From contig OZ025795.1 in assembly GCA_964019425.1 (NCBI GenBank), positions 1-64,000 on the forward strand: DNA of 64,000 nucleotides. Direction: 5' to 3'. The notes beneath the pieces are model-generated. The model did not search any database. It was not told where the DNA came from and saw only the letters and a program-made list of their open reading frames with translations. Of the stretch, positions 1 through 59,742 are shown piece by piece; position 1 is the stretch's first letter, and every line of letters starts with the position of its first letter. The translations under genes were made by a program, and so were the position numbers. Source of the stretch: Flectonema sp. DT1601. Taxonomy: Eukaryota.

Positions 1-3000
1 GGTTTGCGGGTTTGCGGGTTTGCGGGTTTGCGGGTTTGCGGGTTTGCGGGTTTGCGGGTTTGCGGGTTTGCGGGTTTGCGGGTTTGCGGGTTTGCGGGTT
101 TGCGGGTTTGCGGGTTTGCGGGTTTGCGGGTTTGCGGGTTTGCGGGTTTGCGGGTTTGCGGGTTTGCGGGTTTGCGGGTTTGCGGGTTTGCGGGTTTGCG
201 GGTTTGCGGGTTTGCGGGTTTGCGGGTTTGCGGGTTTGCGGGTTTGCGGGTTTGCGGGTTTGCGGGTTTGCGGGTTTGCGGGTTTGCGGGTTTGCGGGTT
301 TGCGGGTTTGCGGGTTTGCGGGTTTGCGGGTTTGCGGGTTTGCGGGTTTGCGGGTTTGCGGGTTTGCGGGTTTGCGGGTTTGCGGGTTTGCGGGTTTGCG
401 GGTTTGCGGGTTTGCGGGTTTGCGGGTTTGCGGGTTTGCGGGTTTGCGGGTTTGCGGGTTTGCGGGTTTGCGGGTTTGCGGGTTTGCGGGTTTGCGGGTT
501 TGCGGGTTTGCGGGTTTGCGGGTTTGCGGGTTTGCGGGTTTGCGGGTTTGCGGGTTTGCGGGTTTGCGGGTTTGCGGGTTTGCGGGTTTGCGGGTTTGCG
601 GGTTTGCGGGTTTGCGGGTTTGCGGGTTTGCGGGTTTGCGGGTTTGCGGGTTTGCGGGTTTGCGGGTTTGCGGGTTTGCGGGTTTGCGGGTTTGCGGGTT
701 TGCGGGTTTGCGGGTTTGCGGGTTTGCGGGTTTGCGGGTTTGCGGGTTTGCGGGTTTGCGGGTTTGCGGGTTTGCGGGTTTGCGGGTTTGCGGGTTTGCG
801 GGTTTGCGGGTTTGCGGGTTTGCGGGTTTGCGGGTTTGCGGGTTTGCGGGTTTGCGGGTTTGCGGGTTTGCGGGTTTGCGGGTTTGCGGGTTTGCGGGTT
901 TGCGGGTTTGCGGGTTTGCGGGTTTGCGGGTTTGCGGGTTTGCGGGTTTGCGGGTTTGCGGGTTTGCGGGTTTGCGGGTTTGCGGGTTTGCGGGTTTGCG
1001 GGTTTGCGGGTTTGCGGGTTTGCGGGTTTGCGGGTTTGCGGGTTTGCGGGTTTGCGGGTTTGCGGGTTTGCGGGTTTGCGGGTTTGCGGGTTTGCGGGTT
1101 TGCGGGTTTGCGGGTTTGCGGGTTTGCGGGTTTGCGGGTTTGCGGGTTTGCGGGTTTGCGGGTTTGCGGGTTTGCGGGTTTGCGGGTTTGCGGGTTTGCG
1201 GGTTTGCGGGTTTGCGGGTTTGCGGGTTTGCGGGTTTGCGGGTTTGCGGGTTTGCGGGTTTGCGGGTTTGCGGGTTTGCGGGTTTGCGGGTTTGCGGGTT
1301 TGCGGGTTTGCGGGTTTGCGGGTTTGCGGGTTTGCGGGTTTGCGGGTTTGCGGGTTTGCGGGTTTGCGGGTTTGCGGGTTTGCGGGTTTGCGGGTTTGCG
1401 GGTTTGCGGGTTTGCGGGTTTGCGGGTTTGCGGGTTTGCGGGTTTGCGGGTTTGCGGGTTTGCGGGTTTGCGGGTTTGCGGGTTTGCGGGTTTGCGGGTT
1501 TGCGGGTTTGCGGGTTTGCGGGTTTGCGGGTTTGCGGGTTTGCGGGTTTGCGGGTTTGCGGGTTTGCGGGTTTGCGGGTTTGCGGGTTTGCGGGTTTGCG
1601 GGTTTGCGGGTTTGCGGGTTTGCGGGTTTGCGGGTTTGCGGGTTTGCGGGTTTGCGGGTTTGCGGGTTTGCGGGTTTGCGGGTTTGCGGGTTTGCGGGTT
1701 TGCGGGTTTGCGGGTTTGCGGGTTTGCGGGTTTGCGGGTTTGCGGGTTTGCGGGTTTGCGGGTTTGCGGGTTTGCGGGTTTGCGGGTTTGCGGGTTTGCG
1801 GGTTTGCGGGTTTGCGGGTTTGCGGGTTTGCGGGTTTGCGGGTTTGCGGGTTTGCGGGTTTGCGGGTTTGCGGGTTTGCGGGTTTGCGGGTTTGCGGGTT
1901 TGCGGGTTTGCGGGTTTGCGGGTTTGCGGGTTTGCGGGTTTGCGGGTTTGCGGGTTTGCGGGTTTGCGGGTTTGCGGGTTTGCGGGTTTGCGGGTTTGCG
2001 GGTTTGCGGGTTTGCGGGTTTGCGGGTTTGCGGGTTTGCGGGTTTGCGGGTTTGCGGGTTTGCGGGTTTGCGGGTTTGCGGGTTTGCGGGTTTGCGGGTT
2101 TGCGGGTTTGCGGGTTTGCGGGTTTGCGGGTTTGCGGGTTTGCGGGTTTGCGGGTTTGCGGGTTTGCGGGTTTGCGGGTTTGCGGGTTTGCGGGTTTGCG
2201 GGTTTGCGGGTTTGCGGGTTTGCGGGTTTGCGGGTTTGCGGGTTTGCGGGTTTGCGGGTTTGCGGGTTTGCGGGTTTGCGGGTTTGCGGGTTTGCGGGTT
2301 TGCGGGTTTGCGGGTTTGCGGGTTTGCGGGTTTGCGGGTTTGCGGGTTTGCGGGTTTGCGGGTTTGCGGGTTTGCGGGTTTGCGGGTTTGCGGGTTTGCG
2401 GGTTTGCGGGTTTGCGGGTTTGCGGGTTTGCGGGTTTGCGGGTTTGCGGGTTTGCGGGTTTGCGGGTTTGCGGGTTTGCGGGTTTGCGGGTTTGCGGGTT
2501 TGCGGGTTTGCGGGTTTGCGGGTTTGCGGGTTTGCGGGTTTGCGGGTTTGCGGGTTTGCGGGTTTGCGGGTTTGCGGGTTTGCGGGTTTGCGGGTTTGCG
2601 GGTTTGCGGGTTTGCGGGTTTGCGGGTTTGCGGGTTTGCGGGTTTGCGGGTTTGCGGGTTTGCGGGTTTGCGGGTTTGCGGGTTTGCGGGTTTGCGGGTT
2701 TGCGGGTTTGCGGGTTTGCGGGTTTGCGGGTTTGCGGGTTTGCGGGTTTGCGGGTTTGCGGGTTTGCGGGTTTGCGGGTTTGCGGGTTTGCGGGTTTGCG
2801 GGTTTGCGGGTTTGCGGGTTTGCGGGTTTGCGGGTTTGCGGGTTTGCGGGTTTGCGGGTTTGCGGGTTTGCGGGTTTGCGGGTTTGCGGGTTTGCGGGTT
2901 TGCGGGTTTGCGGGTTTGCGGGTTTGCGGGTTTGCGGGTTTGCGGGTTTGCGGGTTTGCGGGTTTGCGGGTTTGCGGGTTTGCGGGTTTGCGGGTTTGCG

Positions 3001-3762
3001 GGTTTGCGGGTTTGCGGGTTTGCGGGTTTGCGGGTTTGCGGGTTTGCGGGTTTGCGGGTTTGCGGGTTTGCGGGTTTGCGGGTTTGCGGGTTTGCGGGTT
3101 TGCGGGTTTGCGGGTTTGCGGGTTTGCGGGTTTGCGGGTTTGCGGGTTTGCGGGTTTGCGGGTTTGCGGGTTTGCGGGTTTGCGGGTTTGCGGGTTTGCG
3201 GGTTTGCGGGTTTGCGGGTTTGCGGGTTTGCGGGTTTGCGGGTTTGCGGGTTTGCGGGTTTGCGGGTTTGCGGGTTTGCGGGTTTGCGGGTTTGCGGGTT
3301 TGCGGGTTTGCGGGTTTGCGGGTTTGCGGGTTTGCGGGTTTGCGGGTTTGCGGGTTTGCGGGTTTGCGGGTTTGCGGGTTTGCGGGTTTGCGGGTTTGCG
3401 GGTTTGCGGGTTTGCGGGTTTGCGGGTTTGCGGGTTTGCGGGTTTGCGGGTTTGCGGGTTTGCGGGTTTGCGGGTTTGCGGGTTTGCGGGTTTGCGGGTT
3501 TGCGGGTTTGCGGGTTTGCGGGTTTGCGGGTTTGCGGGTTTGCGGGTTTGCGGGTTTGCGGGTTTGCGGGTTTGCGGGTTTGCGGGTTTGCGGGTTTGCG
3601 GGTTTGCGGGTTTGCGGGTTTGCGGGTTTGCGGGTTTGCGGGTTTGCGGGTTTGCGGGTTTGCGGGTTTGCGGGTTTGCGGGTTTGCGGGTTTGCGGGTT
3701 TGCGGGTTTGCGGGTTTGCGGGTTTGCGGGTTTGCGGGTTTGCGGGTTTGCGGGTTTGCGGG
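1..3762 (+). repeat. Perfect tandem array of the 8-mer GGGTTTGC (~470 units visible; runs off the window start)
   Basis: Direct reading; no variant units seen. The long RVCGFAGL ORFs are artefacts of the stop-free 8-mer. Confidence 0.99.
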
Positions 3763-4021
3763 GAACCATAACTCCTGTACAGCCTGAATGAAAGGAAGGA
3801 AAGATAAGAGTAGAAGAAATGTAATAGTAAAACATGAAACTATGGATAAAACTAAGTAGCTCGTCTATCACTAGGAAGGATAGAGAAATTAAACTATAAG
3901 AGTTCACAAATTCTTTTCACGAAGTGAGGTAAGTAGACCGCAGGTGGTGGTCGCTATCGGCTGAGCGTGGCAGAAAGCCATGTGAGTGAGCAGTCCGAGT
4001 AGCGGCACCGGTTGGCCTGCC
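3761..4021 (-). repeat. Split direct repeat B2 (261 bp) of element 1
   Basis: Identical by eye to 4228-4488 (offset 467). Confidence 0.95.
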
Positions 4022-4040
4022 GAGGGGGTCGGTGGGTGGG

Positions 4041-4229
4041 TTTTCTTTTTGTTTAAGTGTTTAATGGGTCGAACCCGTCGGCTGAAAGAAAAGGAAAGGT
4101 AAACATGAGTTAAACAGCTCTAAATAAAATGAAATATATTCTGATAGGATGTATCGATGCGCCAAACGATGGCGAGAAAATGATGCTGACGGCTGTACTT
4201 CGAAGTTCCGGTTCCCCGCTGTAGTTAGG
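4041..4229 (-). repeat. Split direct repeat A2 (189 bp) of element 1
   Basis: Identical by eye to 8427-8615 (offset 4386). Confidence 0.95.
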
Positions 4230-4488
4230 GAACCATAACTCCTGTACAGCCTGAATGAAAGGAAGGAAAGATAAGAGTAGAAGAAATGTAATAGTAAAAC
4301 ATGAAACTATGGATAAAACTAAGTAGCTCGTCTATCACTAGGAAGGATAGAGAAATTAAACTATAAGAGTTCACAAATTCTTTTCACGAAGTGAGGTAAG
4401 TAGACCGCAGGTGGTGGTCGCTATCGGCTGAGCGTGGCAGAAAGCCATGTGAGTGAGCAGTCCGAGTAGCGGCACCGGTTGGCCTGCC
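4228..4488 (-). repeat. Split direct repeat B1 (261 bp) of element 1
   Basis: Copy of 3761-4021; begins immediately after the RT-RH stop codon (4489-4491). Confidence 0.95.
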
Positions 4489-7197
4489 TCACTCCACCCC
4501 GTCGCTTGTAATAAACCTCCGCAGCGCAAGTTCGACAGTATGCAGTGTTGATGCCGATGAGATTTTGTGTTCTGGGAGGCGTGATGGGATGTCAGCTGGA
4601 TTGTTAGCTGACGCGACCCATCCGATGTTAACATCGAGTTGGAGGTCCTTGAATATTATAGAAGAAAGAACGACATTCTTATTTAAGTCTGCTGACCTAG
4701 CACAGAGTTTCTTTCGAAGTGCACCAACAACAGAAGTGTTATCGATCCAGAGTGATAGGGTGCCGCCCTTATATCTTACGGGAAGCTGAGAAAGCGTCTT
4801 AGATAATGCAAGAGATTCGAGAACGTTGATGTGGAGGCGTGCTTCTGATGGCGCCCAGGAGCCGCCGAGGATAATAATTTCAGCTGTTGAGTCATCAATA
4901 ATGACGCCGCCCCATCCCGTCATAGAAGCGTCGATGAACGTTGTGACTGAATTTCTGCTATCATGCTTGAAAATCGTCTGTTGCTTGAGAGCCGCAGTGC
5001 ACCATGCAGAGAGTTGTGCGGTAACTGATGGCGGGATGTTAACATTCGCTTCTGGACGGCGGGTCCCCCTATTGAGACCGTTGACAAGTCTTCGAAGGAA
5101 CTTCACTGCATACCAGAACTGACCCATCGGAACGCCTGCAATTGCACTTGCGTGAACAAGTCTTCCTCCGAGTGACTCGAGCTGTGAAGCTGTGCAGTTG
5201 GAAAGATTCACACCACTTATCTTGCGTCGAATTTTCTCAGAAGCCCTTACAGTACGAAGCTCATGATTAAAGTCCGCCCCGAGGAACGTGTAGGTTGTCG
5301 CAGCAGTATGTGAGTCGGAAGCCTTCCATGTAATAGACATACCCGAAGCAGTCTCATCAAGCACTGTCGTCGCATCGAGAATATGCTTCCGCTCCCCTGT
5401 GTACCTTATATTGTCAATAAAGATGTCAATACCAACGGAGTGCACGGCAATGTCACTTCTAACGTAGTCGGGATGTCCTGCAGCGGATGCGGCGAGCGTA
5501 TGCATTAGTTCAGGGGCGCCAATATGTCCCATCGGTAGTCGTTGCATCTCGAACCATCTTCCAGAGCTATCTTGGAACCTGAAGAGATGTCTTGCATATG
5601 TTGGAATTTCAATCGCAAAGAATCCTGTTCTGAAGTCACGAGTTGTGGCGCACTCCTGCTTGACAGCACCAAGATAAGCTGAGATGTGCTTCAGTGGAAC
5701 GGCGGCTTGGTACCCAGTACCCTCGCCCCAGTTGTTCAGTCCCTTCGTCCAGAGTATGAATCGCTGGCGTAAGCCCTCAGCCTTCTCCTCAACAACAGTG
5801 AACGGCACATTTTGCATTACCCCCCCTGCTTCAGCATGGCGTGCGATAGAACGGCTAACCAGTTCGTCAGCATGGCTAGGCTGGAGAGTTGAGTGTTTCG
5901 AGTGTGTGCTGCTTCGCGAAGGTGGTGTTTGCCTTGGGAATACCATATCCCAGACACTATCAAACCGCACCCTTGCCGAGTCGTTCAGCCTCCCTCGAAG
6001 CCCGTCAACATTCATTAGTTTTATAGAAGAAACATGAAGCGGTGATGCCTTCTCTTCCGCTGTGACAGGTAGCCTCGTCCGCTGGCCCCTTCTCGAGATG
6101 CTATGCGGTGCATGTTTTACAAGAGCTGGGTGGCTTTCCAAGTCTGTAGAGCAACCGCCATGTCGGCTGGCGCACCCCCGTACCTCAGCGATGTTGATGA
6201 TATCCCTGTCTCCTTCTCCGCATGCTTCAGGGTCCGAGAGATAATGTGCTCCGGTAAGTCCGCTCCCTTTGCAAGGTTTTCGTAAAGCACTGTTGCTGCG
6301 CCGCGCTTTATCGAGTGTGCTGTAAACCCCTTCATGTTCGGATCCCTTCCCCACATCCGATCCAACATTTCTGTTGTTCTGTTTGTGAGTGCCCCGAATG
6401 GAATCTTGTCCTTTAAAAGCAGCCAGATCTCTCCCGTCATGCTCCCCCGTATCACAGTCCAACGTGACGGGACGAATGGATTTGCTGATCGAAGCTTCGG
6501 CGTGCTGAGCCAGTCGATGATCACTTCCTCCCTCTCCACTCGAATGAATTGCTCCGACGTGAGCGCCTGAACCTCGCCCCATCTTGAGGCTGTCTTCCAG
6601 CAGATCATTGTTGCCAGCCATAGTTCGTCCGATGATGACTCCGCCCAGGCCATGAGAGCCTCCCTTGTAATCGGCCGTGCTTGTTTTGTCGGAATAGCTG
6701 CGCCGTCTGCTCGTAGCGCGGTGGCAAGAGTTAGTAGCTGTCGATTGTCCATTCCCAGACACTTCATGATTGCTGATAGGGACTTTGCGTACTGAAGTAG
6801 CCCTTGTGGTTTCACCCTTGTGGCAAGGACGAATAAGACAGCGGTTTCCGCGTTTACTGGCAAGCTGTTCACTTCCGCCCACGATAAGAGTCTTGCCCAG
6901 AGGTTTCGTCTCTTCGCCGATGTACTCGCCGCCCACATCTTCCCGACTACGTCGGCCAGCTTCTTCGAAGCGTCTTCCGCGCTGACGCCGTCCTCTGTAT
7001 GTGCAGAGCGAGTTCGGTCTTTCTTCCCGAGATGGTTTAAAATTTCTCTCGTCAGAATAGGCAGCTCCGGTTGGGTCTCTTGGGTAGTAGGAAAAGTCAG
7101 TTGCAACCCGGACAATGGACTTTTCTGGTAATTCCGGCGCCATTTTAACTTTCGCGTGGCTGGTGCGCCCGTCCCCAACCACTTGCGTTCTTTTCAT
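4489..7197 (-). CDS. Reverse transcriptase-RNase H (DIRS/VIPER/TATE type); N-terminal part overlaps the YR ORF in another frame
   Basis: RT motifs DFRTGFFAI, RLPMGH, IFIDNIRY (YxDD position = FIDN), YTFLG; RNase H motifs FIDASMTGWGG, HINVLE, WIDNT, NPADIPSR. Confidence 0.93.
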   Translation of the reverse strand: MKRTQVVGDGRTSHAKVKMAPELPEKSIVRVATDFSYYPRDPTGAAYSDERNFKPSREERPNSLCTYRGRRQRGRRFEEAGRRSREDVGGEYIGEETKPLGKTLIVGGSEQLASKRGNRCLIRPCHKGETTRATSVRKVPISNHEVSGNGQSTATNSCHRATSRRRSYSDKTSTADYKGGSHGLGGVIIGRTMAGNNDLLEDSLKMGRGSGAHVGAIHSSGEGGSDHRLAQHAEASISKSIRPVTLDCDTGEHDGRDLAAFKGQDSIRGTHKQNNRNVGSDVGKGSEHEGVYSTLDKARRSNSALRKPCKGSGLTGAHYLSDPEACGEGDRDIINIAEVRGCASRHGGCSTDLESHPALVKHAPHSISRRGQRTRLPVTAEEKASPLHVSSIKLMNVDGLRGRLNDSARVRFDSVWDMVFPRQTPPSRSSTHSKHSTLQPSHADELVSRSIARHAEAGGVMQNVPFTVVEEKAEGLRQRFILWTKGLNNWGEGTGYQAAVPLKHISAYLGAVKQECATTRDFRTGFFAIEIPTYARHLFRFQDSSGRWFEMQRLPMGHIGAPELMHTLAASAAGHPDYVRSDIAVHSVGIDIFIDNIRYTGERKHILDATTVLDETASGMSITWKASDSHTAATTYTFLGADFNHELRTVRASEKIRRKISGVNLSNCTASQLESLGGRLVHASAIAGVPMGQFWYAVKFLRRLVNGLNRGTRRPEANVNIPPSVTAQLSAWCTAALKQQTIFKHDSRNSVTTFIDASMTGWGGVIIDDSTAEIIILGGSWAPSEARLHINVLESLALSKTLSQLPVRYKGGTLSLWIDNTSVVGALRKKLCARSADLNKNVVLSSIIFKDLQLDVNIGWVASANNPADIPSRLPEHKISSASTLHTVELALRRFITSDGVE
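6117..7178 (-). CDS. Tyrosine recombinase of element 1 (first ATG at 6938, MWAAS)
   Basis: Catalytic set: CWKTASRWGE (R), TPK (K), FTAHSIKRG (HxxR), LKH, SLRY (Y). Confidence 0.92.
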   Translation of the reverse strand: MGTGAPATRKLKWRRNYQKSPLSGLQLTFPTTQETQPELPILTREILNHLGKKDRTRSAHTEDGVSAEDASKKLADVVGKMWAASTSAKRRNLWARLLSWAEVNSLPVNAETAVLFVLATRVKPQGLLQYAKSLSAIMKCLGMDNRQLLTLATALRADGAAIPTKQARPITREALMAWAESSSDELWLATMICWKTASRWGEVQALTSEQFIRVEREEVIIDWLSTPKLRSANPFVPSRWTVIRGSMTGEIWLLLKDKIPFGALTNRTTEMLDRMWGRDPNMKGFTAHSIKRGAATVLYENLAKGADLPEHIISRTLKHAEKETGISSTSLRYGGAPADMAVALQTWKATQLL

Positions 7198-8426
7198 TGA
7201 TGGGACCTGCCGCCCTTTGAAGCTTCGTTTTTTGAACCTCTAGAGACTTCTTTCCGCGCAGCGTAGTTTGACTTCACCTTAGCTGTGCTAGACGCCCGCC
7301 ATGCTTTCGCATAGCGTGGGGCAACATTCTGTTCCCTCCAGAGTTCACCTTTAAAAGCTTCAGCCGCCTTCCATCCATCCCTTGCCTTACACCTTAATAC
7401 CTGCAAGCTGTCGGCAAGGGCAAGCACAGCGTCTTCAGCGTCCCGTTCCGGATGCAAGATGACTTCGATCGCACCGATCACCGCCTCCATCCCATCTTGC
7501 AGATCTCCTTTCTTGCTAGGAACCCATGTTCGCAACTCTCGAATTAATTCCGTCAGTTGGAAGTTACTGGCATCTGCGTACTCCATCCACCTATCAGGGT
7601 CTTCCGCAACGGAACGGACAGTATGCGAGACTGGATTGTGAATTCTTGCTTCTTCAGCGGAAGTCGGTTCTTCATACTGAGCCCTTGGCCCCGGCTGTTC
7701 AGGTGCGGTCGTACGAGGCGCCGGTTGCGCGCTCATTGGGTGGACGTATCTGTACGACGCCCGCATCAAGTTTGCAATTTGTTTATCTTGCTTAGAGATC
7801 ATTTCCTGCTGCTCCTCAATAAGCTTTGACTGCCTGTTCAGTCTATTCAGTACATCTGTTGCGAAAGCATCCGTTCGTGACTCGAGCGAATCTTGTCTAT
7901 CATTAGTACTTTTAACAGCTGTTGTGGCGGCGGCCGTGGCATTTGCTGCTTCGCTACTTACTGCACGGATCGCTCCTTCATGCTTCGCAAATTCTTGAGC
8001 GGTACTACGATACAGTCCTGTGAGATTCTCGTCTTGCTGGCTTTGTCTATTTGCAACTGTCGTTACAATCGCTTCAACTTTCCTAAACGGATCTTGAGGC
8101 ATCCCAGAAAGGCTTGCTAGTGTCCCGTTCTGTACAGCTTCGGCGATGCTATCAACAATTAAATTATTCCGACCTCGCAGCGCGTCAATTAATATTGCAA
8201 TCTTTCTTGGTGAAATACCTTGAATTACTTCTCTATCACACCCAAGGCACCTTGCAAGCACCATTATCATCATCATTTTGCCTGCTTCACTTGTCCAATC
8301 AGCCCATGGGATCCGACCCAATACATCTGGCATATTTATGTGTCTTCTCGGTAGCAGTTCCTCACCGGTATTTCCCCATAGCGTAACTAATGAGTTAGGA
8401 AATTCGAAGTCATAAGTATCACCCAT
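7194..8426 (-). CDS. Gag-like ORF1 of element 1 (410 aa, coiled coil, basic C-terminus)
   Basis: First ORF after repeat A1; N-terminus TYDFEFPNSLVTLW resembles element 2 SYEFSMPTSLLSLW. The gag role is inferred from position. Confidence 0.8.
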   Translation of the reverse strand: MGDTYDFEFPNSLVTLWGNTGEELLPRRHINMPDVLGRIPWADWTSEAGKMMMIMVLARCLGCDREVIQGISPRKIAILIDALRGRNNLIVDSIAEAVQNGTLASLSGMPQDPFRKVEAIVTTVANRQSQQDENLTGLYRSTAQEFAKHEGAIRAVSSEAANATAAATTAVKSTNDRQDSLESRTDAFATDVLNRLNRQSKLIEEQQEMISKQDKQIANLMRASYRYVHPMSAQPAPRTTAPEQPGPRAQYEEPTSAEEARIHNPVSHTVRSVAEDPDRWMEYADASNFQLTELIRELRTWVPSKKGDLQDGMEAVIGAIEVILHPERDAEDAVLALADSLQVLRCKARDGWKAAEAFKGELWREQNVAPRYAKAWRASSTAKVKSNYAARKEVSRGSKNEASKGGRSHQ

Positions 8427-8615
8427 TTTTCTTTTTGTTTAAGTGTTTAATGGGTCGAACCCGTCGGCTGAAAGAAAAGGAAAGGTAAACATGAGTTAAA
8501 CAGCTCTAAATAAAATGAAATATATTCTGATAGGATGTATCGATGCGCCAAACGATGGCGAGAAAATGATGCTGACGGCTGTACTTCGAAGTTCCGGTTC
8601 CCCGCTGTAGTTAGG
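8427..8615 (-). repeat. Split direct repeat A1 (5' terminus of element 1)
   Basis: Copy of 4041-4229; abuts the gag ATG (8426) and the satellite. Confidence 0.95.
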
Positions 8616-11125
8616 TTTGCGGGTTTGCGGGTTTGCGGGTTTGCGGGTTTGCGGGTTTGCGGGTTTGCGGGTTTGCGGGTTTGCGGGTTTGCGGGTTTGC
8701 GGGTTTGCGGGTTTGCGGGTTTGCGGGTTTGCGGGTTTGCGGGTTTGCGGGTTTGCGGGTTTGCGGGTTTGCGGGTTTGCGGGTTTGCGGGTTTGCGGGT
8801 TTGCGGGTTTGCGGGTTTGCGGGTTTGCGGGTTTGCGGGTTTGCGGGTTTGCGGGTTTGCGGGTTTGCGGGTTTGCGGGTTTGCGGGTTTGCGGGTTTGC
8901 GGGTTTGCGGGTTTGCGGGTTTGCGGGTTTGCGGGTTTGCGGGTTTGCGGGTTTGCGGGTTTGCGGGTTTGCGGGTTTGCGGGTTTGCGGGTTTGCGGGT
9001 TTGCGGGTTTGCGGGTTTGCGGGTTTGCGGGTTTGCGGGTTTGCGGGTTTGCGGGTTTGCGGGTTTGCGGGTTTGCGGGTTTGCGGGTTTGCGGGTTTGC
9101 GGGTTTGCGGGTTTGCGGGTTTGCGGGTTTGCGGGTTTGCGGGTTTGCGGGTTTGCGGGTTTGCGGGTTTGCGGGTTTGCGGGTTTGCGGGTTTGCGGGT
9201 TTGCGGGTTTGCGGGTTTGCGGGTTTGCGGGTTTGCGGGTTTGCGGGTTTGCGGGTTTGCGGGTTTGCGGGTTTGCGGGTTTGCGGGTTTGCGGGTTTGC
9301 GGGTTTGCGGGTTTGCGGGTTTGCGGGTTTGCGGGTTTGCGGGTTTGCGGGTTTGCGGGTTTGCGGGTTTGCGGGTTTGCGGGTTTGCGGGTTTGCGGGT
9401 TTGCGGGTTTGCGGGTTTGCGGGTTTGCGGGTTTGCGGGTTTGCGGGTTTGCGGGTTTGCGGGTTTGCGGGTTTGCGGGTTTGCGGGTTTGCGGGTTTGC
9501 GGGTTTGCGGGTTTGCGGGTTTGCGGGTTTGCGGGTTTGCGGGTTTGCGGGTTTGCGGGTTTGCGGGTTTGCGGGTTTGCGGGTTTGCGGGTTTGCGGGT
9601 TTGCGGGTTTGCGGGTTTGCGGGTTTGCGGGTTTGCGGGTTTGCGGGTTTGCGGGTTTGCGGGTTTGCGGGTTTGCGGGTTTGCGGGTTTGCGGGTTTGC
9701 GGGTTTGCGGGTTTGCGGGTTTGCGGGTTTGCGGGTTTGCGGGTTTGCGGGTTTGCGGGTTTGCGGGTTTGCGGGTTTGCGGGTTTGCGGGTTTGCGGGT
9801 TTGCGGGTTTGCGGGTTTGCGGGTTTGCGGGTTTGCGGGTTTGCGGGTTTGCGGGTTTGCGGGTTTGCGGGTTTGCGGGTTTGCGGGTTTGCGGGTTTGC
9901 GGGTTTGCGGGTTTGCGGGTTTGCGGGTTTGCGGGTTTGCGGGTTTGCGGGTTTGCGGGTTTGCGGGTTTGCGGGTTTGCGGGTTTGCGGGTTTGCGGGT
10001 TTGCGGGTTTGCGGGTTTGCGGGTTTGCGGGTTTGCGGGTTTGCGGGTTTGCGGGTTTGCGGGTTTGCGGGTTTGCGGGTTTGCGGGTTTGCGGGTTTGC
10101 GGGTTTGCGGGTTTGCGGGTTTGCGGGTTTGCGGGTTTGCGGGTTTGCGGGTTTGCGGGTTTGCGGGTTTGCGGGTTTGCGGGTTTGCGGGTTTGCGGGT
10201 TTGCGGGTTTGCGGGTTTGCGGGTTTGCGGGTTTGCGGGTTTGCGGGTTTGCGGGTTTGCGGGTTTGCGGGTTTGCGGGTTTGCGGGTTTGCGGGTTTGC
10301 GGGTTTGCGGGTTTGCGGGTTTGCGGGTTTGCGGGTTTGCGGGTTTGCGGGTTTGCGGGTTTGCGGGTTTGCGGGTTTGCGGGTTTGCGGGTTTGCGGGT
10401 TTGCGGGTTTGCGGGTTTGCGGGTTTGCGGGTTTGCGGGTTTGCGGGTTTGCGGGTTTGCGGGTTTGCGGGTTTGCGGGTTTGCGGGTTTGCGGGTTTGC
10501 GGGTTTGCGGGTTTGCGGGTTTGCGGGTTTGCGGGTTTGCGGGTTTGCGGGTTTGCGGGTTTGCGGGTTTGCGGGTTTGCGGGTTTGCGGGTTTGCGGGT
10601 TTGCGGGTTTGCGGGTTTGCGGGTTTGCGGGTTTGCGGGTTTGCGGGTTTGCGGGTTTGCGGGTTTGCGGGTTTGCGGGTTTGCGGGTTTGCGGGTTTGC
10701 GGGTTTGCGGGTTTGCGGGTTTGCGGGTTTGCGGGTTTGCGGGTTTGCGGGTTTGCGGGTTTGCGGGTTTGCGGGTTTGCGGGTTTGCGGGTTTGCGGGT
10801 TTGCGGGTTTGCGGGTTTGCGGGTTTGCGGGTTTGCGGGTTTGCGGGTTTGCGGGTTTGCGGGTTTGCGGGTTTGCGGGTGAGGGTTTGCGGGTTTGCGG
10901 GTTTGCGGGTTTGCGGGTTTGCGGGTTTGCGGGTTTGCGGGTTTGCGGGTTTGCGGGTTTGCGGGTTTGCGGGTTTGCGGGTTTGCGGGTTTGCGGGTTT
11001 GCGGGTTTGCGGGTTTGCGGGTTTGCGGGTTTGCGGGTTTGCGGGTTTGCGGGTTTGCGGGTTTGCGGGTTTGCGGGTTTGCGGGTTTGCGGGTTTGCGG
11101 GTTTGCGGGTTTGCGGGTTTGCGGG
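8614..11125 (+). repeat. GGGTTTGC array 2 (~2.5 kb) with one GGGTGA variant at 10877-10882
   Basis: Direct reading. Confidence 0.99.
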
Positions 11126-11537
11126 GAACCGCTCTGCATTTTCTATGCGATATCTGCTATAGAAATGTAAAAGTAATAATGAAATAGAAAACAGAGAGGG
11201 AGTAAGCAAGCAATTAATACTAAAGGAGAATGACGGAATCCAATTAAGGATAATTGAAATTGATCAGCTATATCGAATTCTGACATGCCGTCGTGTCTCA
11301 TCCATAAAGTATATCGCAGCTGTGATGGGAGATGATGGTTGTGAATTATAGTAATCGATAATTGAAGTATTGTCCACGTACGAAGTATATTCATTTGCGA
11401 CGGGGGTAGCAGGGCGCCACAGAGGCGAAATCGTCCGGACCAGGCTGTAAAATCTCTTTACAAGAAGTCGGCGCCAAGCGCTAAATCAAGGCTGTGATAT
11501 CGCTATGCCATTTGAGCTGTTCCCTGTAAAGGTGAGG
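11124..11537 (-). mobile_element. 414-bp non-coding insertion, probable solo B-spacer-A unit of a related YR retrotransposon family
   Basis: Same left junction as element 1 (GCGGGGAACC) and same right-end signature (GTTCCC-N11-GG|TTTGC). Shares an AGAAATGTAA.AGTAA block with repeat B and has a G-rich block at ~11398-11420. Confidence 0.75.
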
Positions 11538-11994
11538 TTTGCGGGTTTGCGGGTTTGCGGGTTTGCGGGTTTGCGGGTTTGCGGGTTTGCGGGTTTGCGG
11601 GTTTGCGGGTTTGCGGGTTTGCGGGGTTTGCGGGTTTGCGGGTTTGCGGGTTTGCGGGTTTGCGGGTTTGCGGGTTTGCGGGTTTGCGGGTTTGCGGGTT
11701 TGCGGGTTTGCGGGTTTGCGGGTTTGCGGGTTTGCGGGTTTGCGGGTTTGCGGGTTTGCGGGTTTGCGGGTTTGCGGGTTTGCGGGTTTGCGGGTTTGCG
11801 GGTTTGCGGGTTTGCGGGTTTGCGGGTTTGCGGGTTTGCGGGTTTGCGGGTTTGCGGGTTTGCGGGTTTGCGGGTTTGCGGGTTTGCGGGTTTGCGGGTT
11901 TGCGGGTTTGCGGGTTTGCGGGTTTTGCGGGTTTGCAGGTTTGCGGGTTGCGGGTTTGCGGGTTTGCGGGTTTGCGGGTTTGCGGGTTTGCGGG
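11536..11994 (+). repeat. GGGTTTGC array 3 (~57 units, several variant units)
   Basis: Variants at ~11623 (GGGG), ~11923 (TTTT), ~11937 (GCAGG) and ~11946 (GGGTTGC). Confidence 0.97.
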
Positions 11995-13823
11995 AACTTC
12001 AATGCAAACCAGTGTTTTCCCGGTGTCTCCCCGGCCACCGCCGAAGCGTGCATCAACCTTCCACCCATCGACTCAAGTTGCCCAGCCGTCACATTGTCCA
12101 TGTCCACACCCTGCAACTTCCGACATATCTTCGTCGATACCTTCACCTCCGACTCCCGATGGTCGAAGTCCACCCCCAAGAAAGTGTACTTCGTCTCCGC
12201 AGTAAAGCTGTCAGCTGGTTTCCAGGTTAAACAAAAGTCACCTGCAGCCGCATCGAGGTTCGCCGTAGCTGCAAGTACCATACCAGCCTCACCTGTATAC
12301 CGGATGTTGTCTATGAAGACATCAACCCGTACACCCCGCACACGCCACTCCGGCAGGACGTACGCAGGGTCGCCGGCAGCCGCCGCGGCCAGCGTGTGCA
12401 TGATCCCCGGCGCACACACATGGCCCATCGGCAACCGACAAAGTTCAAACCACGAACCCCCTTCCGTCTGAAAGCGAAAGAAAGAACGCGCTTCTTCCGG
12501 AATCTCGATCGCATAAAATCCCGTGCGAAAGTCCCGGGTACTCCCACATTCCTCCCGAACCTGGTCTAAGTACCGAGAGATGTGGTGCAGAGGTACTTGC
12601 GCAGTGTACCTCTCTTCCAACCAGTTCGCATCCTTGGTCCACAGGATAAACCTCTGGCGCAAGCCCTCGGGTTTCTCCTCTAACACCGTGAATGGAACAT
12701 TGTTCGCCTCACCCGGACCAGTTGCCTTCCGAGCAATGCCAAACGAAGCCAGTTCTCCAGCATGTTCCTCCGAAAATGCCGACCGTCCAGACGACCGGCC
12801 CGCCTTCCCCACCTCCGGCGAGAACGTCATCTTCCACACCTCGTCAAACCGTCTCCGTGGCTCAACATCCAACCTCCTCCGCAATCCTGCAACATCCATC
12901 ACGGGCACACCACTCACATGCAAGGGAGACGCCTTCTCCTCCCGAGTCGAAGGCAACCGCGTCCTCTTCCCCCGCCTCACCAGACTGTGCTGCGTTCCAA
13001 TCCTCACAGCAGCTTCGTCGCATGCCAAGTCCCCAATGCCCTGGCAGTACTCACCGGGTTCGACGCATACCGGAGGGTTGTGGACGACACCCCTTCCCCG
13101 CCTTCTGTGTGCTTGAGAAGACGTGATACCAGGGACGTTGACGTCAACCTTCCTTCCTCTAGCGCCTGCATCAGGACGCCGGCCGCCCCTCGCTTCACCG
13201 AGTGCGCCGTGAAGCCCTTCATGACCGGGTCTCCCCGCCACAGATCCACCAGCCTTTCCGATGTGACAGCCGTCAGTTGTTCGAACGGAGAGAGCTCCCC
13301 CACCAACCGAGCGATCACCCCCACCAGATCGCCCTGGATCACCACCCATCTTGAGGGAACATACGGGTCCGCCCGACGATGCTTCGGTGTCACCCCCCAA
13401 TCGATGATCACCTCGTCCATCTCGATCAAGATGAACTGTTGGGAAGTCAGCTTCTGTACCTCTCCCCACCTTGACGCCGTCTTCCAGCACACTAGAGCCG
13501 CCAACTTCACGTCTCGTGCTTGTTCGTTCGCCCACCGGACCAGCGTTTCCTTTCCGATCGGCTGAGCTTGCTTGACAGGAACCGCCGCCCCTTGTGCCCG
13601 GAGCGCGGCCGCCAAGCTGAGGAGCGGCTGCCGTTCCAACCCCAGGTGTCGGAACACACCGGACAGCGCTTTTGCGTAATTCAGCTGCCCCTGTGGTGTG
13701 ACGCTCGTTGCCAACACGAACAGTGCCGCCGCCTCGGCCGTAACCGGTATGTGCTGAGCCGCCGCCCAACCTTGCAGCCTGCCCCACAGGTTGCGCCGTT
13801 TCTGCGAAGTCTCGGCCGCCCAC
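11995..13823 (-). pseudogene. RT of element 2, truncated before RNase H by the satellite
   Basis: EEKASPLHV, NVPFTVLEEK, DFRTGFYAI, RLPMGH, VFIDNIRY, YTFLG; ends at WFALKF and then reads into the repeat. Confidence 0.9.
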
Positions 13824-14410
13824 ATTTGTGCGACCACACCGCCCAACCGTTCCAAGGCCTCGTCGAGGTTGACAGCCCCTTCCTGTGCCAGCGGCCGTTC
13901 CCCAGCCCCTGCCACGTGCTCCAGAACCACTTGCCCGAACACCGACGGCATCATCGCCCCCTTGTCGGCCAAATGTCCTTCCCTCATACTTTCCATGTAT
14001 GTTCTTCGTTGCTCCTGACGCACTTTTGGCTGCCCAGCATCTCCTGCTAAGCCCACCACGGTCTGCCTTCCGAATCCAGCCCCCCGAACCGGAACAACGA
14101 CCCTTCGCCTCCTTCCAACCAGATCGGGTCTCACCCCCACTTCCGGCAGTACGACCTCTCTGACCCCCTGGCCAGACATGTCCACTCCCCGAAGCGTGGC
14201 CTCCCCCACCTGGCTGGGCAAGCTTGTTTTGTCCTTCCTTCGAGCTTCCGTTCCCGGAACTGAAATCCCTCCGAACCTCCGGCCGTCCCGAGCCTCGTCC
14301 ACCCGAACCCGACCCGAGCCGCCCACATCGACCAACAACCCTCCAACCGGTTTGGGAAAGTCCACCACCCCAAGAGACACGACCCCTCCGACCTGTTCCC
14401 GGTCGGGCAT
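13004..14410 (-). CDS. Tyrosine recombinase of element 2 (conserved MWAAETS at 13825)
   Basis: CWKTASRWGEV, TPKH, FTAHSVKRG, LLKH, TLRY; collinear with the element 1 YR. Confidence 0.9.
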   Translation of the reverse strand: MPDREQVGGVVSLGVVDFPKPVGGLLVDVGGSGRVRVDEARDGRRFGGISVPGTEARRKDKTSLPSQVGEATLRGVDMSGQGVREVVLPEVGVRPDLVGRRRRVVVPVRGAGFGRQTVVGLAGDAGQPKVRQEQRRTYMESMREGHLADKGAMMPSVFGQVVLEHVAGAGERPLAQEGAVNLDEALERLGGVVAQMWAAETSQKRRNLWGRLQGWAAAQHIPVTAEAAALFVLATSVTPQGQLNYAKALSGVFRHLGLERQPLLSLAAALRAQGAAVPVKQAQPIGKETLVRWANEQARDVKLAALVCWKTASRWGEVQKLTSQQFILIEMDEVIIDWGVTPKHRRADPYVPSRWVVIQGDLVGVIARLVGELSPFEQLTAVTSERLVDLWRGDPVMKGFTAHSVKRGAAGVLMQALEEGRLTSTSLVSRLLKHTEGGEGVSSTTLRYASNPVSTARALGTWHATKLL

Positions 14411-14467
14411 GTCTATCTCTCGGACCGGAACCCCTCCAACTCGGTTGGGAACCGCCAGAGCTGACCG

Positions 14468-15969
14468 TCAGTAGCCCTGGCCCCGACCGTTTTTTGCCTT
14501 TGGCTTTGGCTTTGGCGCCGATGATGCAATACTCTGACCCCCAAAGCCAGAATGCGTCTTCTTCCCTACCACCTTGTCCGCAGCTTTCCTCGCTGCCGCC
14601 GTTTCCGGAGTCAGGGTCTCCTCCTTGAGCTTATTTTCGTAACTCCTTGCAGCAGCTTCGCTTGCCTCTTGGTACTGGTAGTACTCAAGCAACTTGAGGA
14701 TTTCCAACGAGGACTTCTCCGGTCCCGCCGTGACCACCGTAACTGCTAAAGCCGCTAGTCTCTTCGCGTTCTCCCACGTCCACTGCGCCCTTCCCGAGTA
14801 CCTCCTCGCGATCGCCCACTGCAGATTTTCGCGGCCCGTCGGGCCACCAGCAGCAAACCCAGCCCAGTTTTGCCGGTTACCAGCTGCCTCCGTCGAAGTC
14901 AGCTCGCTTCTCTCCCGATCTTCCTCTCCAGTGCCCCGGCAACCATCCATCTCCTCCGAGGCCAAACTCCCGGAGGTGACTCGCATCCCCCAGCGCCGCC
15001 GCGATCACCCGCTCCTGCTCCACCGCGATCACCACTCCCCTCTCTCAGAACCGCACAGGATCTTCATTCCGACCCGCCACTCCGGTCTCACGACTTCCTT
15101 CTGCCGTTTGCTATCCAAAATCCCCGAGATCTTCGAGACTGCCTCCGATAACAATGCATCCTTACCGCTATCAGAAGATGCCCCTACCGGCACTACCGAT
15201 GATTGTTGCTGTTGCTGTAGCTGCATCTGTTGCTGTAGCTGCATCTGTTGCTGTAGTTGCATCTGTTGCTGCTGCTGTTGTTGCTGTTGGTGCAGTTGCG
15301 CCTTCAAATCTGCTAACTCCTTCGCCTGCTGATGGCCCTGGGCTAACATCATCTCACGGAACCCCGCCGACCCCGACCGCTCCTGGCTTCGCTGTTGCTG
15401 TTGCTGGGCCTGTTGTTTTGATACCGTCTGCCGGAGTCTCGCAAGCTCTTCGATACTCTTCTCGGTGATGCCTTGTTGCTCCGCCAGCTGTGCGCGGAGT
15501 TGGGTGACTTGTTCGTCGCTTCTCTGCTGTTGCCCCTTTTGCATTCGGGACAATTCATCCTGCTGTCCCAGCAAGATGCTCTGGTGGTGTTGTTGTTCCT
15601 GCTTCTCCTGCTGCTCCAACCGTCCAACCTGCGATCGCACCACCGCCTCCACCGATCCCTGACGCTGAGCCACTTGCTGCAACGCCTGTCCCGTCTCCTT
15701 CACTCCGGCCAAACGCCGATCCGCTCCCAGCGCGTCTTCAAAAAACGAGCCAGCAGCTCGTCCGCAAACCACCTCTCACCACTCATGTCGTCCGCCTTTT
15801 CCGACGGCATCCACCAGAACCTCCCTTCTGCCTCCGACATACCTATCGCCTTTAGTGCGGCTTCCTTCCGCGCTCTCAAATCTACGTGGCCTTTTCTTGG
15901 GTGTGCCAACCCGGCGCCTTGCACCCACAACGACAGAAGACTCGTCGGCATCGAGAATTCATATGACAT
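14468..15969 (-). pseudogene. Gag-like ORF of element 2, split into three ORF pieces, with a polyQ tract
   Basis: Pieces 15700-15969 (MSYEFSMPTSLLSLW), 15029-15772 (Q-rich coiled coil) and 14468-14986 (basic C-terminus). Confidence 0.75.
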
Positions 15970-16407
15970 TATTTCAAACTTAAATGTACAAGTATGAAAA
16001 AACCCTGTGATAAAGCGTAAAGAATGACAAAATGGAAAAGTTAAACGATGAATAATTTTCTGAAATATTGAGGGACACGACGTTCCCAAGGATAACTTCT
16101 AATAATGCAAGCTTGTTTAGGCCATGCCTCCCACGCGAGCCCGGCGATACTAGCAGGCACCAAAAAATCATAATAATGATCCGGCATATTTTCTTAAAAC
16201 GCTTTGCGTTAAGACCCTTCCTAGCCTGAATAAATGAGTACAATAAAATAATGATAAGAGAAACAGTGAAATGATAATTCTGAAATAAAGACAAGAGAAC
16301 AGAAATAATACTTAAACAACGTTTAACGTAGATCAACGAAAAGTTAAATATTATAAGAGTATATTCGTACTTCACTTGCCTTTTGTGCAGTTCCCAGTCT
16401 GAGTGTT

Positions 16408-16440
16408 GGTTTGCGGGTTTGCGGGTTTGCGGGTTTGCGG
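16408..16440 (+). repeat. Short GGGTTTGC array 4 (~4 units) flanking the 5' end of element 2
   Basis: Direct reading. Confidence 0.95.
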
Positions 16441-16589: not shown

Positions 16590-18185
16590 TACCTGCAAAC
16601 CCGCAAACCTAATAATACAGGAAAGAAAAACAGAGGGCTTGGTTGTAAAATAAAGTTGTTCAGAAAGATAAAATGGGTAACTTAAAAATAAGCCTTACCC
16701 ACTAACCTAGCCATTGTTTTAATTTTTGCTGAGGCATGCTGAGGCAAAAGAAAAACAAGTTTAATTCAGAAAAACAAAAAATAAATAACTTTGAGCAAGC
16801 GAAGCCTGGACAGTGCGGATTGCGGGTAATTGTCCTTCCATACTTTGCACCTGTCTGATTCAAGGGTAACTGAATTCAAATTTCGTAGGACTCAGGGGTG
16901 GGCTTTGAAAACGTGAGTGTGAGAGAAAAGAGTGATCGAGCTGTATAAAGTCTTTTAAAAATAGAAAGCTAAAAATTGTGCTAGCATATTAGTACATTCA
17001 GAGAAATAAAAAGAAAAATAACTTTGCGTGAGCGAAGCGAGCCTGGACAGGTATCTCTAGTGCAGGTTTGCAGGTATAACAAGTATTCATAAAGTTACTC
17101 TCACCACAGTGGTGATTCTTTCCAAAACAAAGACGTTTACATGACCGTCCTAGTCGGACTCAGGCTGGCCCACCAATCGGTGACGGAGCAGTTGGGCGGC
17201 CGCCAGGTCTGCACACAACGGCCAGGGAGAACCTTATAGTGTGGCTTGCATTATCTGTTGTATGTTTGAAATCATTTTATAAATCATTCACAGTCAAACT
17301 TATGTCTGTAATGTGTGTGACAATTCTACCTGGGATGGGAATAGTATTAATAAGGTTATCGTTCATTTTTTGTTTGTTCATTATCACTTTCTTCCATTCA
17401 GCAGAGTGGAAATGTGGCTTGCCCCTTCTGTTTCACTGCCTCGCCTGCGATGTTTCAGGCCTTTGCCTTCAAAAAGTACGTTTCTATTTTTTCTTTTTCT
17501 TCTTTTTTATGTGGCAGTAGTAAATGAACTCTGAGTTCAGAAGGTGGAAGTTGTTTTGAATGTGGCAATAAAACAAAAAGTTGTAAGGTAGAAATGTGGA
17601 ATGCTGTTGGGATCTAGTCGTGGGAGGGAATCTTATTCGAGAAGGTGGAAGAGTTTTTTTTTTTTTTTTTCCTTTTTTTCAGCAACAAAAGGAAGAGAGC
17701 TCATGCACTTTTTTTTTCTTTACCTGTTGTTGTTGTCATCACAGGTGAAGAGGGTGCTTTGAAAACGTGAGTGTGAGAGAAAAAGAGTGATCGAGCTGCA
17801 TAAATAATTTCTTTTGAAAGTGAAGAAAGCTAAAGAATATATAAAAAATGTCTCTGTTGTTTTGTTCATTTTTCCAACTTTGGAATCATACACTTTCCTG
17901 TCTGATTCCTTTGATTCTTTCTCTGCAGTGCTAAGCTTGGTGGAAAATTACCTGAATGAATTCTAGGATTTTTTGGGTTCCAAGGAAAAAACTTTTTTTT
18001 TGAACCCGCTGACGGCTGTTTTTTGTTTAGGGACCCAAAAGAGGAAAGGCCAAAAAGCCTAATACAGGGAATAAAAACTGAGGTAACGAAGTTGTAAAAT
18101 AAAGTTGTTCACAAAGAAAAAAATGGTTAACTTGAAATAATCCACATATCCACTATAATAACCGAGCCATTGTTGTCATTTTAGC
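16590..18185. repeat. Mosaic of short dispersed imperfect direct repeats and degenerate satellite units
   Basis: ~16608-16720 resembles ~18058-18185; ~16902-16948 resembles ~17756-17803; ~16783-16813 resembles ~17015-17050. Confidence 0.7.
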
Positions 18186-20343: not shown

Positions 20344-20616
20344 TACAAAAAAAAGGTCGGACCCGATCAGGCAGGTTTACCCCCCGAAACAAATTAGACA
20401 TGAATCATTATAACTGGATTCTGTCCACACAAAATCGAATGCTTTAAATAAATTACCAGAGAAAGAAATGCTGTCAAATTGACCCGGGGACCACACGCAC
20501 TACAGGTTGAGCATCCCATGCCCTGGCTTAGGTTTTTTCGACCACGGAAAATTACTGAAGTTATGAAGTTTTTCTTTTTGTTTATTTTGTTATTAAAATT
20601 ATTGTTACCATTATTG

Positions 20617-21140
20617 TTACATTGGGATAAGGGAGATTTTATTGATCCAGTCTTCAATATCTTGGATTTTCCGTGTATTTGGGATATCAAGCGACCGTAA
20701 GCGGCGGCATCGTGCCAGGTGAGAGTGTAAAGCACATCTGTGAGGACGTGACGTAAGTTCAACAAGATTTCCATGACGGGTGGGTCCACCGCCAATTACT
20801 TTCCATTCAGCATCTCTACGATGCAAAAAGCCCATCTCCTTTCGATCAAATCGTTTATGACAAGTGTCTTCAGCTGAGTCACGTGTCCCACACAGTATCA
20901 GAAAGTTGGAAAAGGTGTCATCAACCCACCGCACATTAGCTTCGTCACAAAAGTCTGGATTTCTGAAGATATGTGCAACTGTACCGCCATTTCTGCCACA
21001 CACCATACATTTTTTACCAAGGGTTAAACTCACAGCTAACTTCAGGTCTGATGGCTTTCCCCCTGATGAACTGAGCTTTTTTGTTGATCCGTATCGTGTA
21101 AACTCTGGATCGAAGAAGTTCTCAAATGGTGCGGCTGCCG
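20617..21140 (-). CDS. HNH-type endonuclease domain (fragment or exon)
   Basis: CMVC...VAHI...NFLILC...CHKRFD; the frame stays open upstream to an ACTAACAG possible splice acceptor at ~21145. Confidence 0.65.
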
Positions 21141-21884: not shown

Positions 21885-22286
21885 TCATCTGTCTTTTGCA
21901 TCTTCGTTATTTGAAAATGCGAAACCATTCCCTGGAGTGTTGAGTTCGTTTCGGGTTAGGGTCTCATCATTGGACATGTACTGATTCAGGATAGTACTAA
22001 TTTCCTCAAGTATTTCCTTGTGCGGTAAATTAGTGTACATGTCACTAAAGTCAAAGGACTTAACATTTCTATAGCTGAGACAAGTGTAGTTAGCTTTAAT
22101 ATACTTAGCTACCTCATCAACATTGTCAACTATGAAATATTTCTGTATTCCGGTTTTCCTTTCTTCCTCTTTTTCTATCGTTTTACTTCTAAACGAACGC
22201 GTTTTTTTTAAGATGCCTGACAGTTCTTTTGACATCTTGGTGGTTGTAGTGAGAGGTTTGCCTCTAAACAAACAGTCATAATGCAA
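21885..22286 (-). pseudogene. Penelope-like reverse transcriptase fragment
   Basis: Motif KSFDFSDMYTNLPH; flanks are interrupted by stops. Confidence 0.6.
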
Positions 22287-49005: not shown

Positions 49006-49042
<37 letters not shown>

Positions 49043-59690: not shown

Positions 59691-59742
59691 GTTGTTCGTA
59701 AAAGTAATCTGATTCATGATAACATAATAATAGTAATACAGA

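What the first reader, a model, noticed from the sequence alone, without database searches (positions are those of the whole stretch)
1..16440. Satellite-targeted guild of tyrosine-recombinase retrotransposons colonising a (GGGTTTGC)n array
Seen: three sequence-distinct insertions (intact element 1, a 414-bp solo unit, decayed element 2) all interrupt the same 8-mer array. All are in the same orientation and sit in the GGG run. Known: DIRS-order elements integrate circular cDNA with a YR, and kinetoplastid TATE elements insert specifically into the telomeric hexamer. Inference: this is a TATE/VIPER-like clade targeting a different repeat, which has diversified into several families sharing one niche. 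It could provide a compact, sequence-specific eukaryotic integrase.
Basis: partly seen in the sequence, partly recalled or inferred. Interest (0 to 1): 0.9.

Follow-up and report, generated by a model that had tools for sequence, protein, structure and literature searches.

The report
Repeat-targeting VIPER retrotransposons in a protist
Three different jumping-gene insertions sit at the same base position within an 8-letter DNA repeat in what is likely a marine diplonemid protist, and their small Cre-like recombinase likely reads that repeat as its landing site, which would give a defined enzyme-and-target pair for a retrotransposon group whose target choice a 2020 study called untested.

Summary
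A (GGGTTTGC)n array holds three co-oriented insertions: an intact tyrosine-recombinase (YR) retrotransposon (E1) with 100%-identical split direct repeats, a 414-bp SIRE-like solo unit (U), and a truncated copy of a second family (E2). E1's internal circle junction and flanks show a conservative crossover in a 2-bp GG core. All 5 intact ends use one register and pass over an available 3-bp GGG match. Gene calls on two other contigs show 3 more ends in that register. E1 proteins occur on at least 4-6 contigs. By-eye motifs match VIPER, not TATE. The YR model folds like Cre. An inverted-arm hairpin marks the circle junction in E1 and in 4 of 6 distant relatives. The array is dispersed and its polarity is wrong for a canonical telomere. 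9 of 10 array peptides show no YR end. Genome-wide flanks could not be tabulated (no assembly held). Repeat-targeting YRs are known (TATE, nimaviruses). Verdict: new variant of a known kind; interest 0.6.

The parts
1..3762 (+). (GGGTTTGC)n array, block 1, perfect; runs off the window start; ends in the GG core (3761-3762)
3763..8613 (-). E1: intact VIPER-type YR retrotransposon, A1-ORF1-YR-RT/RH-B1-A2-spacer-B2
3761..4021 (-). B2 split direct repeat, 261 bp, identical to B1
4022..4040 (-). C-rich A2-B2 spacer, 19 nt; similar spacers in relatives L003, L008, L009, L017
4041..4229 (-). A2 split direct repeat, 189 bp, identical to A1
4210..4234 (.). Internal circle junction (B1/A2): inverted arms GGTTCCC and GGGAACC around an 11-nt spacer; GG core at 4228-4229
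4228..4488 (-). B1 split direct repeat; overlaps A2 by the 2-bp core; preceded on the sense strand by a G-rich tract
4489..7197 (-). RT/RNase H ORF, 902 aa (P0089), long 5' overlap with the YR ORF; motifs RDFRTGF, LPMG, FIDN, FIDAS, NPAD
6117..7193 (-). Tyrosine recombinase ORF, 358 aa stop to stop (273 from the first Met); invariant R204, K233, H293, K296, H324, Y338; Cre-like model
7194..8426 (-). ORF1, gag-like by position only, 410 aa, no CCHC box
8427..8615 (-). A1 split direct repeat, including the GG core at 8614-8615
8614..11125 (+). Array block 2, 312 perfect units, one GGGTGA variant at 10877-10882
11126..11535 (-). U: non-coding SIRE-like solo unit of a third family (A about 121 bp, C-rich spacer 11397-11414, B about 271 bp); its two ends form 10/11 complementary arms at an 11-nt spacing
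11536..11994 (+). Array block 3, degenerate
11995..16407 (-). E2: second family; intact 5' end, ORF1 with an internal deletion, open YR ORF (13004-14467), RT broken after FALKF and joined to the array; RNase H and 3' repeats absent
16408..16440 (+). Array block 4 (3 perfect units), border with unique DNA

Best explanation
Three co-oriented insertions, likely from sister families of VIPER-type retrotransposons, interrupt the (GGGTTTGC)n repeat at the same base, and their tyrosine recombinase likely recognises the repeat and inserts a circular cDNA by one conservative crossover in a shared GG. Shown: split-direct-repeat anatomy; junction arithmetic (target TTTGCG[GG]TTTGC x donor AGTTA[GG]GAACC gives exactly the two observed flanks, with no target duplication beyond the core); one register at 8 of 8 readable intact ends; inverted arms at the circle junction; a Cre-like fold of the YR model. 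Inferred: read-through transcription from the co-oriented gene cluster; repeat-guided reverse transcription to a circle (the published Ngaro/PAT model); YR binding to the inverted arms, possibly as a folded single strand; active recognition of the repeat flanks setting the register; U arising by A1 x A2 recombination; E2 losing its 3' half by deletion into the array at a cryptic GG-AAC.
For: Junctions. Register: donor and target both offer GGG, so a homology-only crossover would give 3+3 Gs, yet E1 and U show 4+2 and E2's intact end shows 2. Other contigs: P0146 (515,557 bp) and P0265 (327,691 bp) carry E2's 5' end joined to the array in the same frame as the window, followed by different downstream sequence. 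P0146's far end reads GLRGTA, the 4-G junction plus the arm predicted from E2's 5' end. Recent activity: SDRs 100% identical; E1 ORF1 on 6 contigs with 0-5 differences in 410 aa; E1 RT on 4 contigs. No remnants in 47.6 kb of neighbouring unique DNA. E1 and E2 YRs are sisters (SH-aLRT 93) in a clade with D. papillatum YRs (99) in a quick tree of 75 rows. YR model pLDDT 78.8; best matches are Cre and its variants, Z about 16, rmsd about 4.3 A over about 260 residues. Junction arms of 7-9 bp occur in E1, L003, L006, L017 and L028, each matched by at most 6 of 600 control positions.
Against: Only 3 insertions were seen as DNA. The other 3 ends are read from translated peptides of unknown assembly origin, and the three E2-family 5' junctions could descend from one insertion. 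Flanks of the other E1 copies are unknown. 9 of the 10 array peptides show no YR end (one loose-pattern hit, P0118, was rejected by eye). 5' flanks of relatives L004, L006 and L008 are non-repetitive. 2 of 7 junctions (L008, L009) fail the strict arm test. The repeat itself has no obvious match to the donor arms. Pfam support for YR and RT is below the curated cut-offs. The HxxR position reads HSIK-R. The tree is a quick one without named VIPER or TATE rows.
Confidence: 0.72

Rival explanations
1. Safe-haven accumulation: the YR needs only a GG core (perhaps with a few local bases) and inserts genome-wide. Copies survive in the gene-free array, and orientation and position follow from the core.
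For: GG lies on one strand only in the array, so orientation is forced. Enrichment is only p about 0.03 per GG site. The neighbouring DNA is gene-dense. Some relatives have non-repetitive 5' flanks.
Against: One register at all 8 readable intact ends across three families, avoiding the longer GGG match. E2-family ends abut the repeat on two more contigs, and a fourth copy (P0273) runs into it.
Confidence: 0.17
2. Few original insertions: one or two ancestral insertions into a short repeat seed were spread by segmental duplication and array expansion, so the shared register is inherited rather than repeatedly chosen.
For: The three E2-family 5' junctions are near-identical and could share one origin. 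Arrays vary from 3 to more than 469 units.
Against: E1, U and E2 have unrelated terminal sequences and spacers and YRs only 52-56% identical, so at least three separate insertions are needed. E1's identical repeats point to a recent insertion.
Confidence: 0.06
3. The array is this organism's chromosome-end repeat with reversed polarity (C/A-rich strand running 3' to the end), added de novo onto broken retroelements. The elements are then telomere dwellers like TATE.
For: The array runs off position 1. Perfection and element integrity rise towards position 1. All long genes point that way. Three broken ORFs (E2 RT, P0273, P0114) pass into the repeat on the same strand.
Against: The G-rich strand points inward, against telomerase polarity (own knowledge). 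Most array peptides are short and bracketed by unique sequence. It is not known that the window starts at a contig end. ORF-based detection can only see 3' breaks.
Confidence: 0.05

Closest known systems
VIPER (kinetoplastid YR retrotransposon; Crithidia fasciculata CfaC1_21 copy, T. cruzi Dm28c copies) and its solo derivative SIRE (PMC6681497)
   Same: A1-gag-YR-RT/RH-B1-A2-B2 layout with similar repeat sizes (T. cruzi A 173, B 219 bp). YR motifs W-x-TASRWGEV and HSIKRGA and RT motifs PFTVVEEK, LPMG, IDNIR agree by eye with the C. fasciculata copy. C-rich A2-B2 spacer and pre-B1 G-tract. U matches SIRE's A2-B2 make-up.
   Different: Host is likely a diplonemid. Insertion at a fixed register in a tandem repeat is not reported for VIPER in the text I read (the word 'target' is absent from PMC6681497). 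GG core. No CCHC box in ORF1.
TATE of Leishmania braziliensis (PMC2696322, PMC6681497)
   Same: VIPER-like YR element with split direct repeats, clustered in a short G-rich repeat at one position (GGG^TTA); here the equivalent position is GGG^TTT.
   Different: TATE's YR reads WGFAARACD / PSIRKGA by eye, unlike E1. Its core is a TT duplication rather than GG. Its target is the telomeric hexamer. Its elements are longer.
Telomere- and 28S-specific tyrosine recombinases of endogenous nimaviruses (PMC10871703, abstract only)
   Same: Eukaryote-resident YRs associated with insertion into a short tandem repeat; niche partitioning by integrase type.
   Different: Large DNA viruses of crustaceans, not retrotransposons. 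No sequence comparison was made here.
DIRS1-like elements (PMC3266345, PMC7192593)
   Same: Circle-junction model, crossover at a short shared core, no target duplication.
   Different: DIRS1 has inverted terminal repeats plus an ICR and a 3-bp core. Here there are split direct repeats and a 2-bp core.

Membership tests
Order DIRS (YR retrotransposons) | Encodes a tyrosine recombinase instead of an integrase or endonuclease | tested here: met
   R-K-H-H-Y residues invariant in 20 sequences; Cre-like fold; ESM neighbours are phage integrases; Pfam alone weak, E=0.019
Order DIRS (YR retrotransposons) | gag-like ORF plus RT/RNase H, often overlapping the YR | tested here: met
   gag assigned by position only
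Order DIRS (YR retrotransposons) | No target-site duplication; short core shared by both ends and the circle junction | tested here: met
   GG core at both flanks and at the B1/A2 overlap
VIPER-like superfamily | Split direct repeats A1 ... B1 A2 B2 | tested here: met
   layout as in PMC6681497
VIPER-like superfamily | Monophyly with VIPER and TATE in an RT tree | not testable with these tools
   No named VIPER or TATE protein was returned by the searches, so no tree with them could be built; only by-eye motif comparison with supplement DNA
VIPER (versus TATE) | VIPER-type YR and RT sequence | tested here: inconclusive
   Clear by-eye agreement with the C. fasciculata VIPER copy and not with L. 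braziliensis TATE or the B. saltans VIPER copy; no scored alignment
TATE | Insertion in the telomeric hexamer with a TT duplication | tested here: not met
   Target is GGGTTTGC, core is GG; no tandem TTAGGG in 16441-64000 or among the window's tandem repeats
SIRE-like solo unit (U) | Non-coding A2-spacer-B2 segment of a parent element | tested here: inconclusive
   Family-type termini and C-rich spacer present; parent element not found
DIRS1-like | Inverted terminal repeats and internal complementary region | tested here: not met
   Self-comparison shows only direct repeats in E1
Canonical telomerase telomere (array) | G-rich strand running 5' to 3' towards a chromosome end | tested here: inconclusive
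   G-rich strand runs inward from position 1; the window's position in its 393,303-bp contig is unknown

The most novel reading that the evidence does not exclude
VIPER-lineage recombinases integrate like integron integrases. The single-stranded cDNA folds its circle junction into a hairpin whose stem is conserved in shape but not in sequence across the clade. A roughly 280-residue Cre-like YR then makes one strand exchange with only 2 bp of homology while reading the GGGTTTGC repeat on the target. That would be a compact eukaryotic integrase with a naturally re-programmed repeat target (8-mer here, a TTAGGG-containing 30-mer beside L009), and the array would be a shared niche that also hosts an unrelated non-LTR element.
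Probability: 0.3. Interest if true: 0.82.

Novelty: new variant of a known kind. Interest (0 to 1): 0.6.

Why it matters
PMC7192593 (2020) states that the specificity of the DIRS YR had not been tested experimentally. This locus gives an intact, apparently young enzyme, a base-resolved donor site, a base-resolved target and two product junctions, and three families act as natural controls. That makes the assay direct. It also extends repeat targeting from TATE to the VIPER side of the group and to likely diplonemids, and points to a junction hairpin as a shared cis element. The concept of a repeat-targeting eukaryotic YR is not new, which caps the score.

Tried and rejected
No own genome was held, so the genome-wide flank table could not be made. 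Sequencing runs: two low-depth holders, no RNA holder listed. Laying them on E1 covered internal parts at 2x depth and no junction. DNA of intact E2-family copies at E2's break was not obtained, so the length of microhomology there is inferred. A junction pattern scan of JGI metagenomes gave 0 hits. IMG/VR gave 0 relatives among 60 candidate stretches. GTDB gave 2 of 513 candidates, probably eukaryotic contigs in MAGs. Exact look-ups found 2 of 10 window peptides, none of them array-spanning. No tRNA or Rfam hit in the window. PDB sequence searches gave no hit for RT and only weak P2 integrase hits for the YR profile. Motif searches in the Ribeiro supplements found nothing, since the readable files are DNA and long lines are cut. 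The careful tree did not finish, so the quick tree is quoted. The junction hairpin is only modestly stable (z -1.7 and -2.6). Earlier scan findings: none. Rejected: orientation as evidence of targeting; membership in TATE; the repeat as element cargo (it is absent from E1's internal circle junction). Not-in-print claims rest on searches of an open-access library. Peacock 2007, Lorenzi 2006, Goodwin and Poulter 2004 and Repbase entries were not seen, nor the .fas supplements of PMC6681497; they may already describe the junction arms or VIPER targets.
Full report
Host and setting. No genome is held for the window. All long non-repeat ORFs lie on the - strand. The named homologues of the element proteins are all Diplonema papillatum and ESM neighbours of the RT are mostly Euglenozoa, so a diplonemid host is inferred; host genes were not tested. 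Window proteins map to a 393,303-bp ENA contig.

Observation. The array forms four blocks. E1 (3763-8613, - strand) has ORF1, YR and an overlapping RT/RNase H and split direct repeats A1...B1-A2-B2, both pairs 100% identical. U (410 unique bp, 414 with both cores) is non-coding, has family-type ends and a C-rich spacer dividing it into A- and B-sized parts, like SIRE. E2 has an intact 5' end and an open YR ORF, a deletion in ORF1, and breaks inside RT where intact family members P0024, P0095 and P0096 continue.

Crossover. E1's internal B1/A2 joint reads AGTTA-GG-GAACC, its left flank TTTGCG-GG-GAACC and its right flank AGTTA-GG-TTTGC. This is an exact conservative exchange in a GG core. The array has 1690 GG and no CC on the + strand, so orientation and 'in the GGG run' follow from the core and are not separate evidence. 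The register is informative: both partners offer GGG, so best homology would give three Gs on each side, but E1 and U show four and two, and E2's intact end shows two.

Other loci. I searched protein collections with the translated repeat. Of the 150 best hits, 10 held an exact run of 36 aa or more; the other 140 were unrelated low-complexity proteins and were dropped. P0146 and its cluster mate P0265, on contigs of 515,557 and 327,691 bp, carry E2's 5' terminus fused to the array in the window's frame with different downstream sequence. P0146 ends in GLRGTA, the four-G junction plus the arm predicted from E2's 5' end. That makes 8 of 8 readable intact ends in one register, from 4 to 6 insertion events. 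Against: 9 of those 10 peptides show no YR end, so most short arrays are empty or hold other things; 8 of the 10 are bracketed by non-repeat sequence, so the repeat is dispersed. P0273 is another E2-family copy whose ORF1 runs into the repeat. P0114 looks like a restriction-endonuclease-type non-LTR ORF (motifs RHD, RPGD, DVT, EAAK; family label from my own knowledge) that also runs into it. E1 ORF1 occurs on six contigs and its RT on four, nearly identical, but their flanks are unknown.

Enzyme. R204, K233, H293, K296, H324 and Y338 are invariant in 20 sequences. The model (pLDDT 78.8) matches Cre and its variants best (Foldseek E 8e-7; Z 16.0, rmsd 4.3, 263 aligned). Pfam hits are below cut-off. 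In a quick tree of 75 rows (5 of 80 dropped for short alignments) E1 and E2 are sisters (93) within a clade holding the D. papillatum YRs (99).

Junction arms. E1's circle junction has 7-bp inverted arms around 11 nt; U's ends give 10 of 11 at the same spacing, with a chance rate of 17 in 20,000 for scores of 10/12 or more. Among 58 related loci, six had a usable B/A joint: L003, L006, L017 and L028 have 8-9-bp arms in unrelated sequence, and L008 and L009 do not pass the strict test. By eye, the C. fasciculata VIPER and L. braziliensis TATE junctions in the supplements also show such arms. The crossover lies at or near the inner edge of one arm, and the arms are 11-23 nt apart, longer than the 6-8-nt overlap of classical YR sites (own knowledge). 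A folded single-stranded donor, as in integrons, is therefore possible; DIRS-1 cDNA is single-stranded (PMC7192593, passages). The hairpin is only modestly stable, and a duplex binding site remains as likely.

Specificity in relatives. 5' flanks of L004, L006 and L008 are non-repetitive; L003's is only 14 bp; L009 follows a 30-bp tandem repeat that contains TTAGGG. Repeat targeting is thus not clade-wide.

Known systems. VIPER-like elements with this layout, and SIRE as A2-B2, are in PMC6681497 (main text parts 1-5 of 9, passages, and parts of three supplement files). By eye E1's YR and RT motifs agree with the C. fasciculata VIPER copy and not with TATE. TATE inserts at GGG^TTA with a TT duplication (PMC2696322, passages). 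Nimavirus YRs go with telomere-repeat or 28S insertion (PMC10871703, abstract). DIRS1 uses a 3-bp core (PMC3266345, passages). The D. papillatum paper notes TATE-like ORFs without analysis (PMC10161547, passages and supplement search). PMC12278014 and PMC11633173 (passages), PMC13598402 (part 1 of 4, passages) and PMC12171722 (term search, no hits) gave nothing on diplonemid telomeres or this repeat. Ten searches listed no paper on this repeat or these elements; older subscription papers were not searchable.

Verdict. The feature is real. Repeat recognition by the YR is the best reading (0.72), ahead of safe-haven accumulation (0.17). It works like TATE, looks VIPER-type in sequence, and is a new variant of a known kind. 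Interest 0.6.

Noticed in passing
window 10877-10882: Single GGGTGA variant in an otherwise perfect block; it resembles U's end (GGTGA-GG) but is followed by three Gs, so it is not an exact excision footprint.
   Followed up: partly
window 11984-12010: E2's break sits next to an inverted copy of the repeat unit (GCAAACC) inside the RT gene, giving a 7-8-bp stem; E1 has GG-AAC at the homologous site.
   Followed up: partly
P0114, P0164, P0126: The same 8-mer arrays adjoin a probable non-LTR retrotransposon ORF (P0114), a related flank on another contig (P0164, by eye) and an ORF with an OTU-like motif in the opposite orientation (P0126; label recalled).
   Followed up: partly
L009:1-95: A distant relative (YR 32-34% identical) begins directly after a 30-bp tandem repeat containing TTAGGG, with GATT shared between flank and circle junction.
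   Followed up: partly
window 4022-4040 and 4489-4513; L003, L008, L009, L017: C-rich A2-B2 spacer and, in most, a G-rich tract before B1 (CAAGCGAC-GGG-like in E1, L003, L017), partly complementary; candidate priming or template-jump signals.
   Followed up: partly
window 18395-21144 (-): Three adjacent ORFs, one with a P-loop-like motif and one with a weak HNH_2 hit (E=0.059); the layout recalls Crinkler-type genes (recalled, not tested); appears to be in pieces.
   Followed up: no
window 21336-22460 (-): ORF fragments with an RT-like FDFSDMYTNLPH motif; possibly a decayed Penelope-like element (recalled); no Pfam support.
   Followed up: partly
window 42565-50895 (-): Three tandem sulfatase-like genes, 92-97% identical in DNA.
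   Followed up: no
window 59742-60125: 16-bp tandem repeat, 25 copies, at the 5' side of a START-like ORF (domain label recalled).
   Followed up: no
window 16590-17070: Scattered single or degenerate 8-mer units in both orientations in the unique DNA beside the array, with short local duplications.
   Followed up: no
L001, L002: VIPER-type YR genes in two bacterial MAG contigs, probably eukaryotic contamination, as PMC6681497 reported for similar cases.
   Followed up: no
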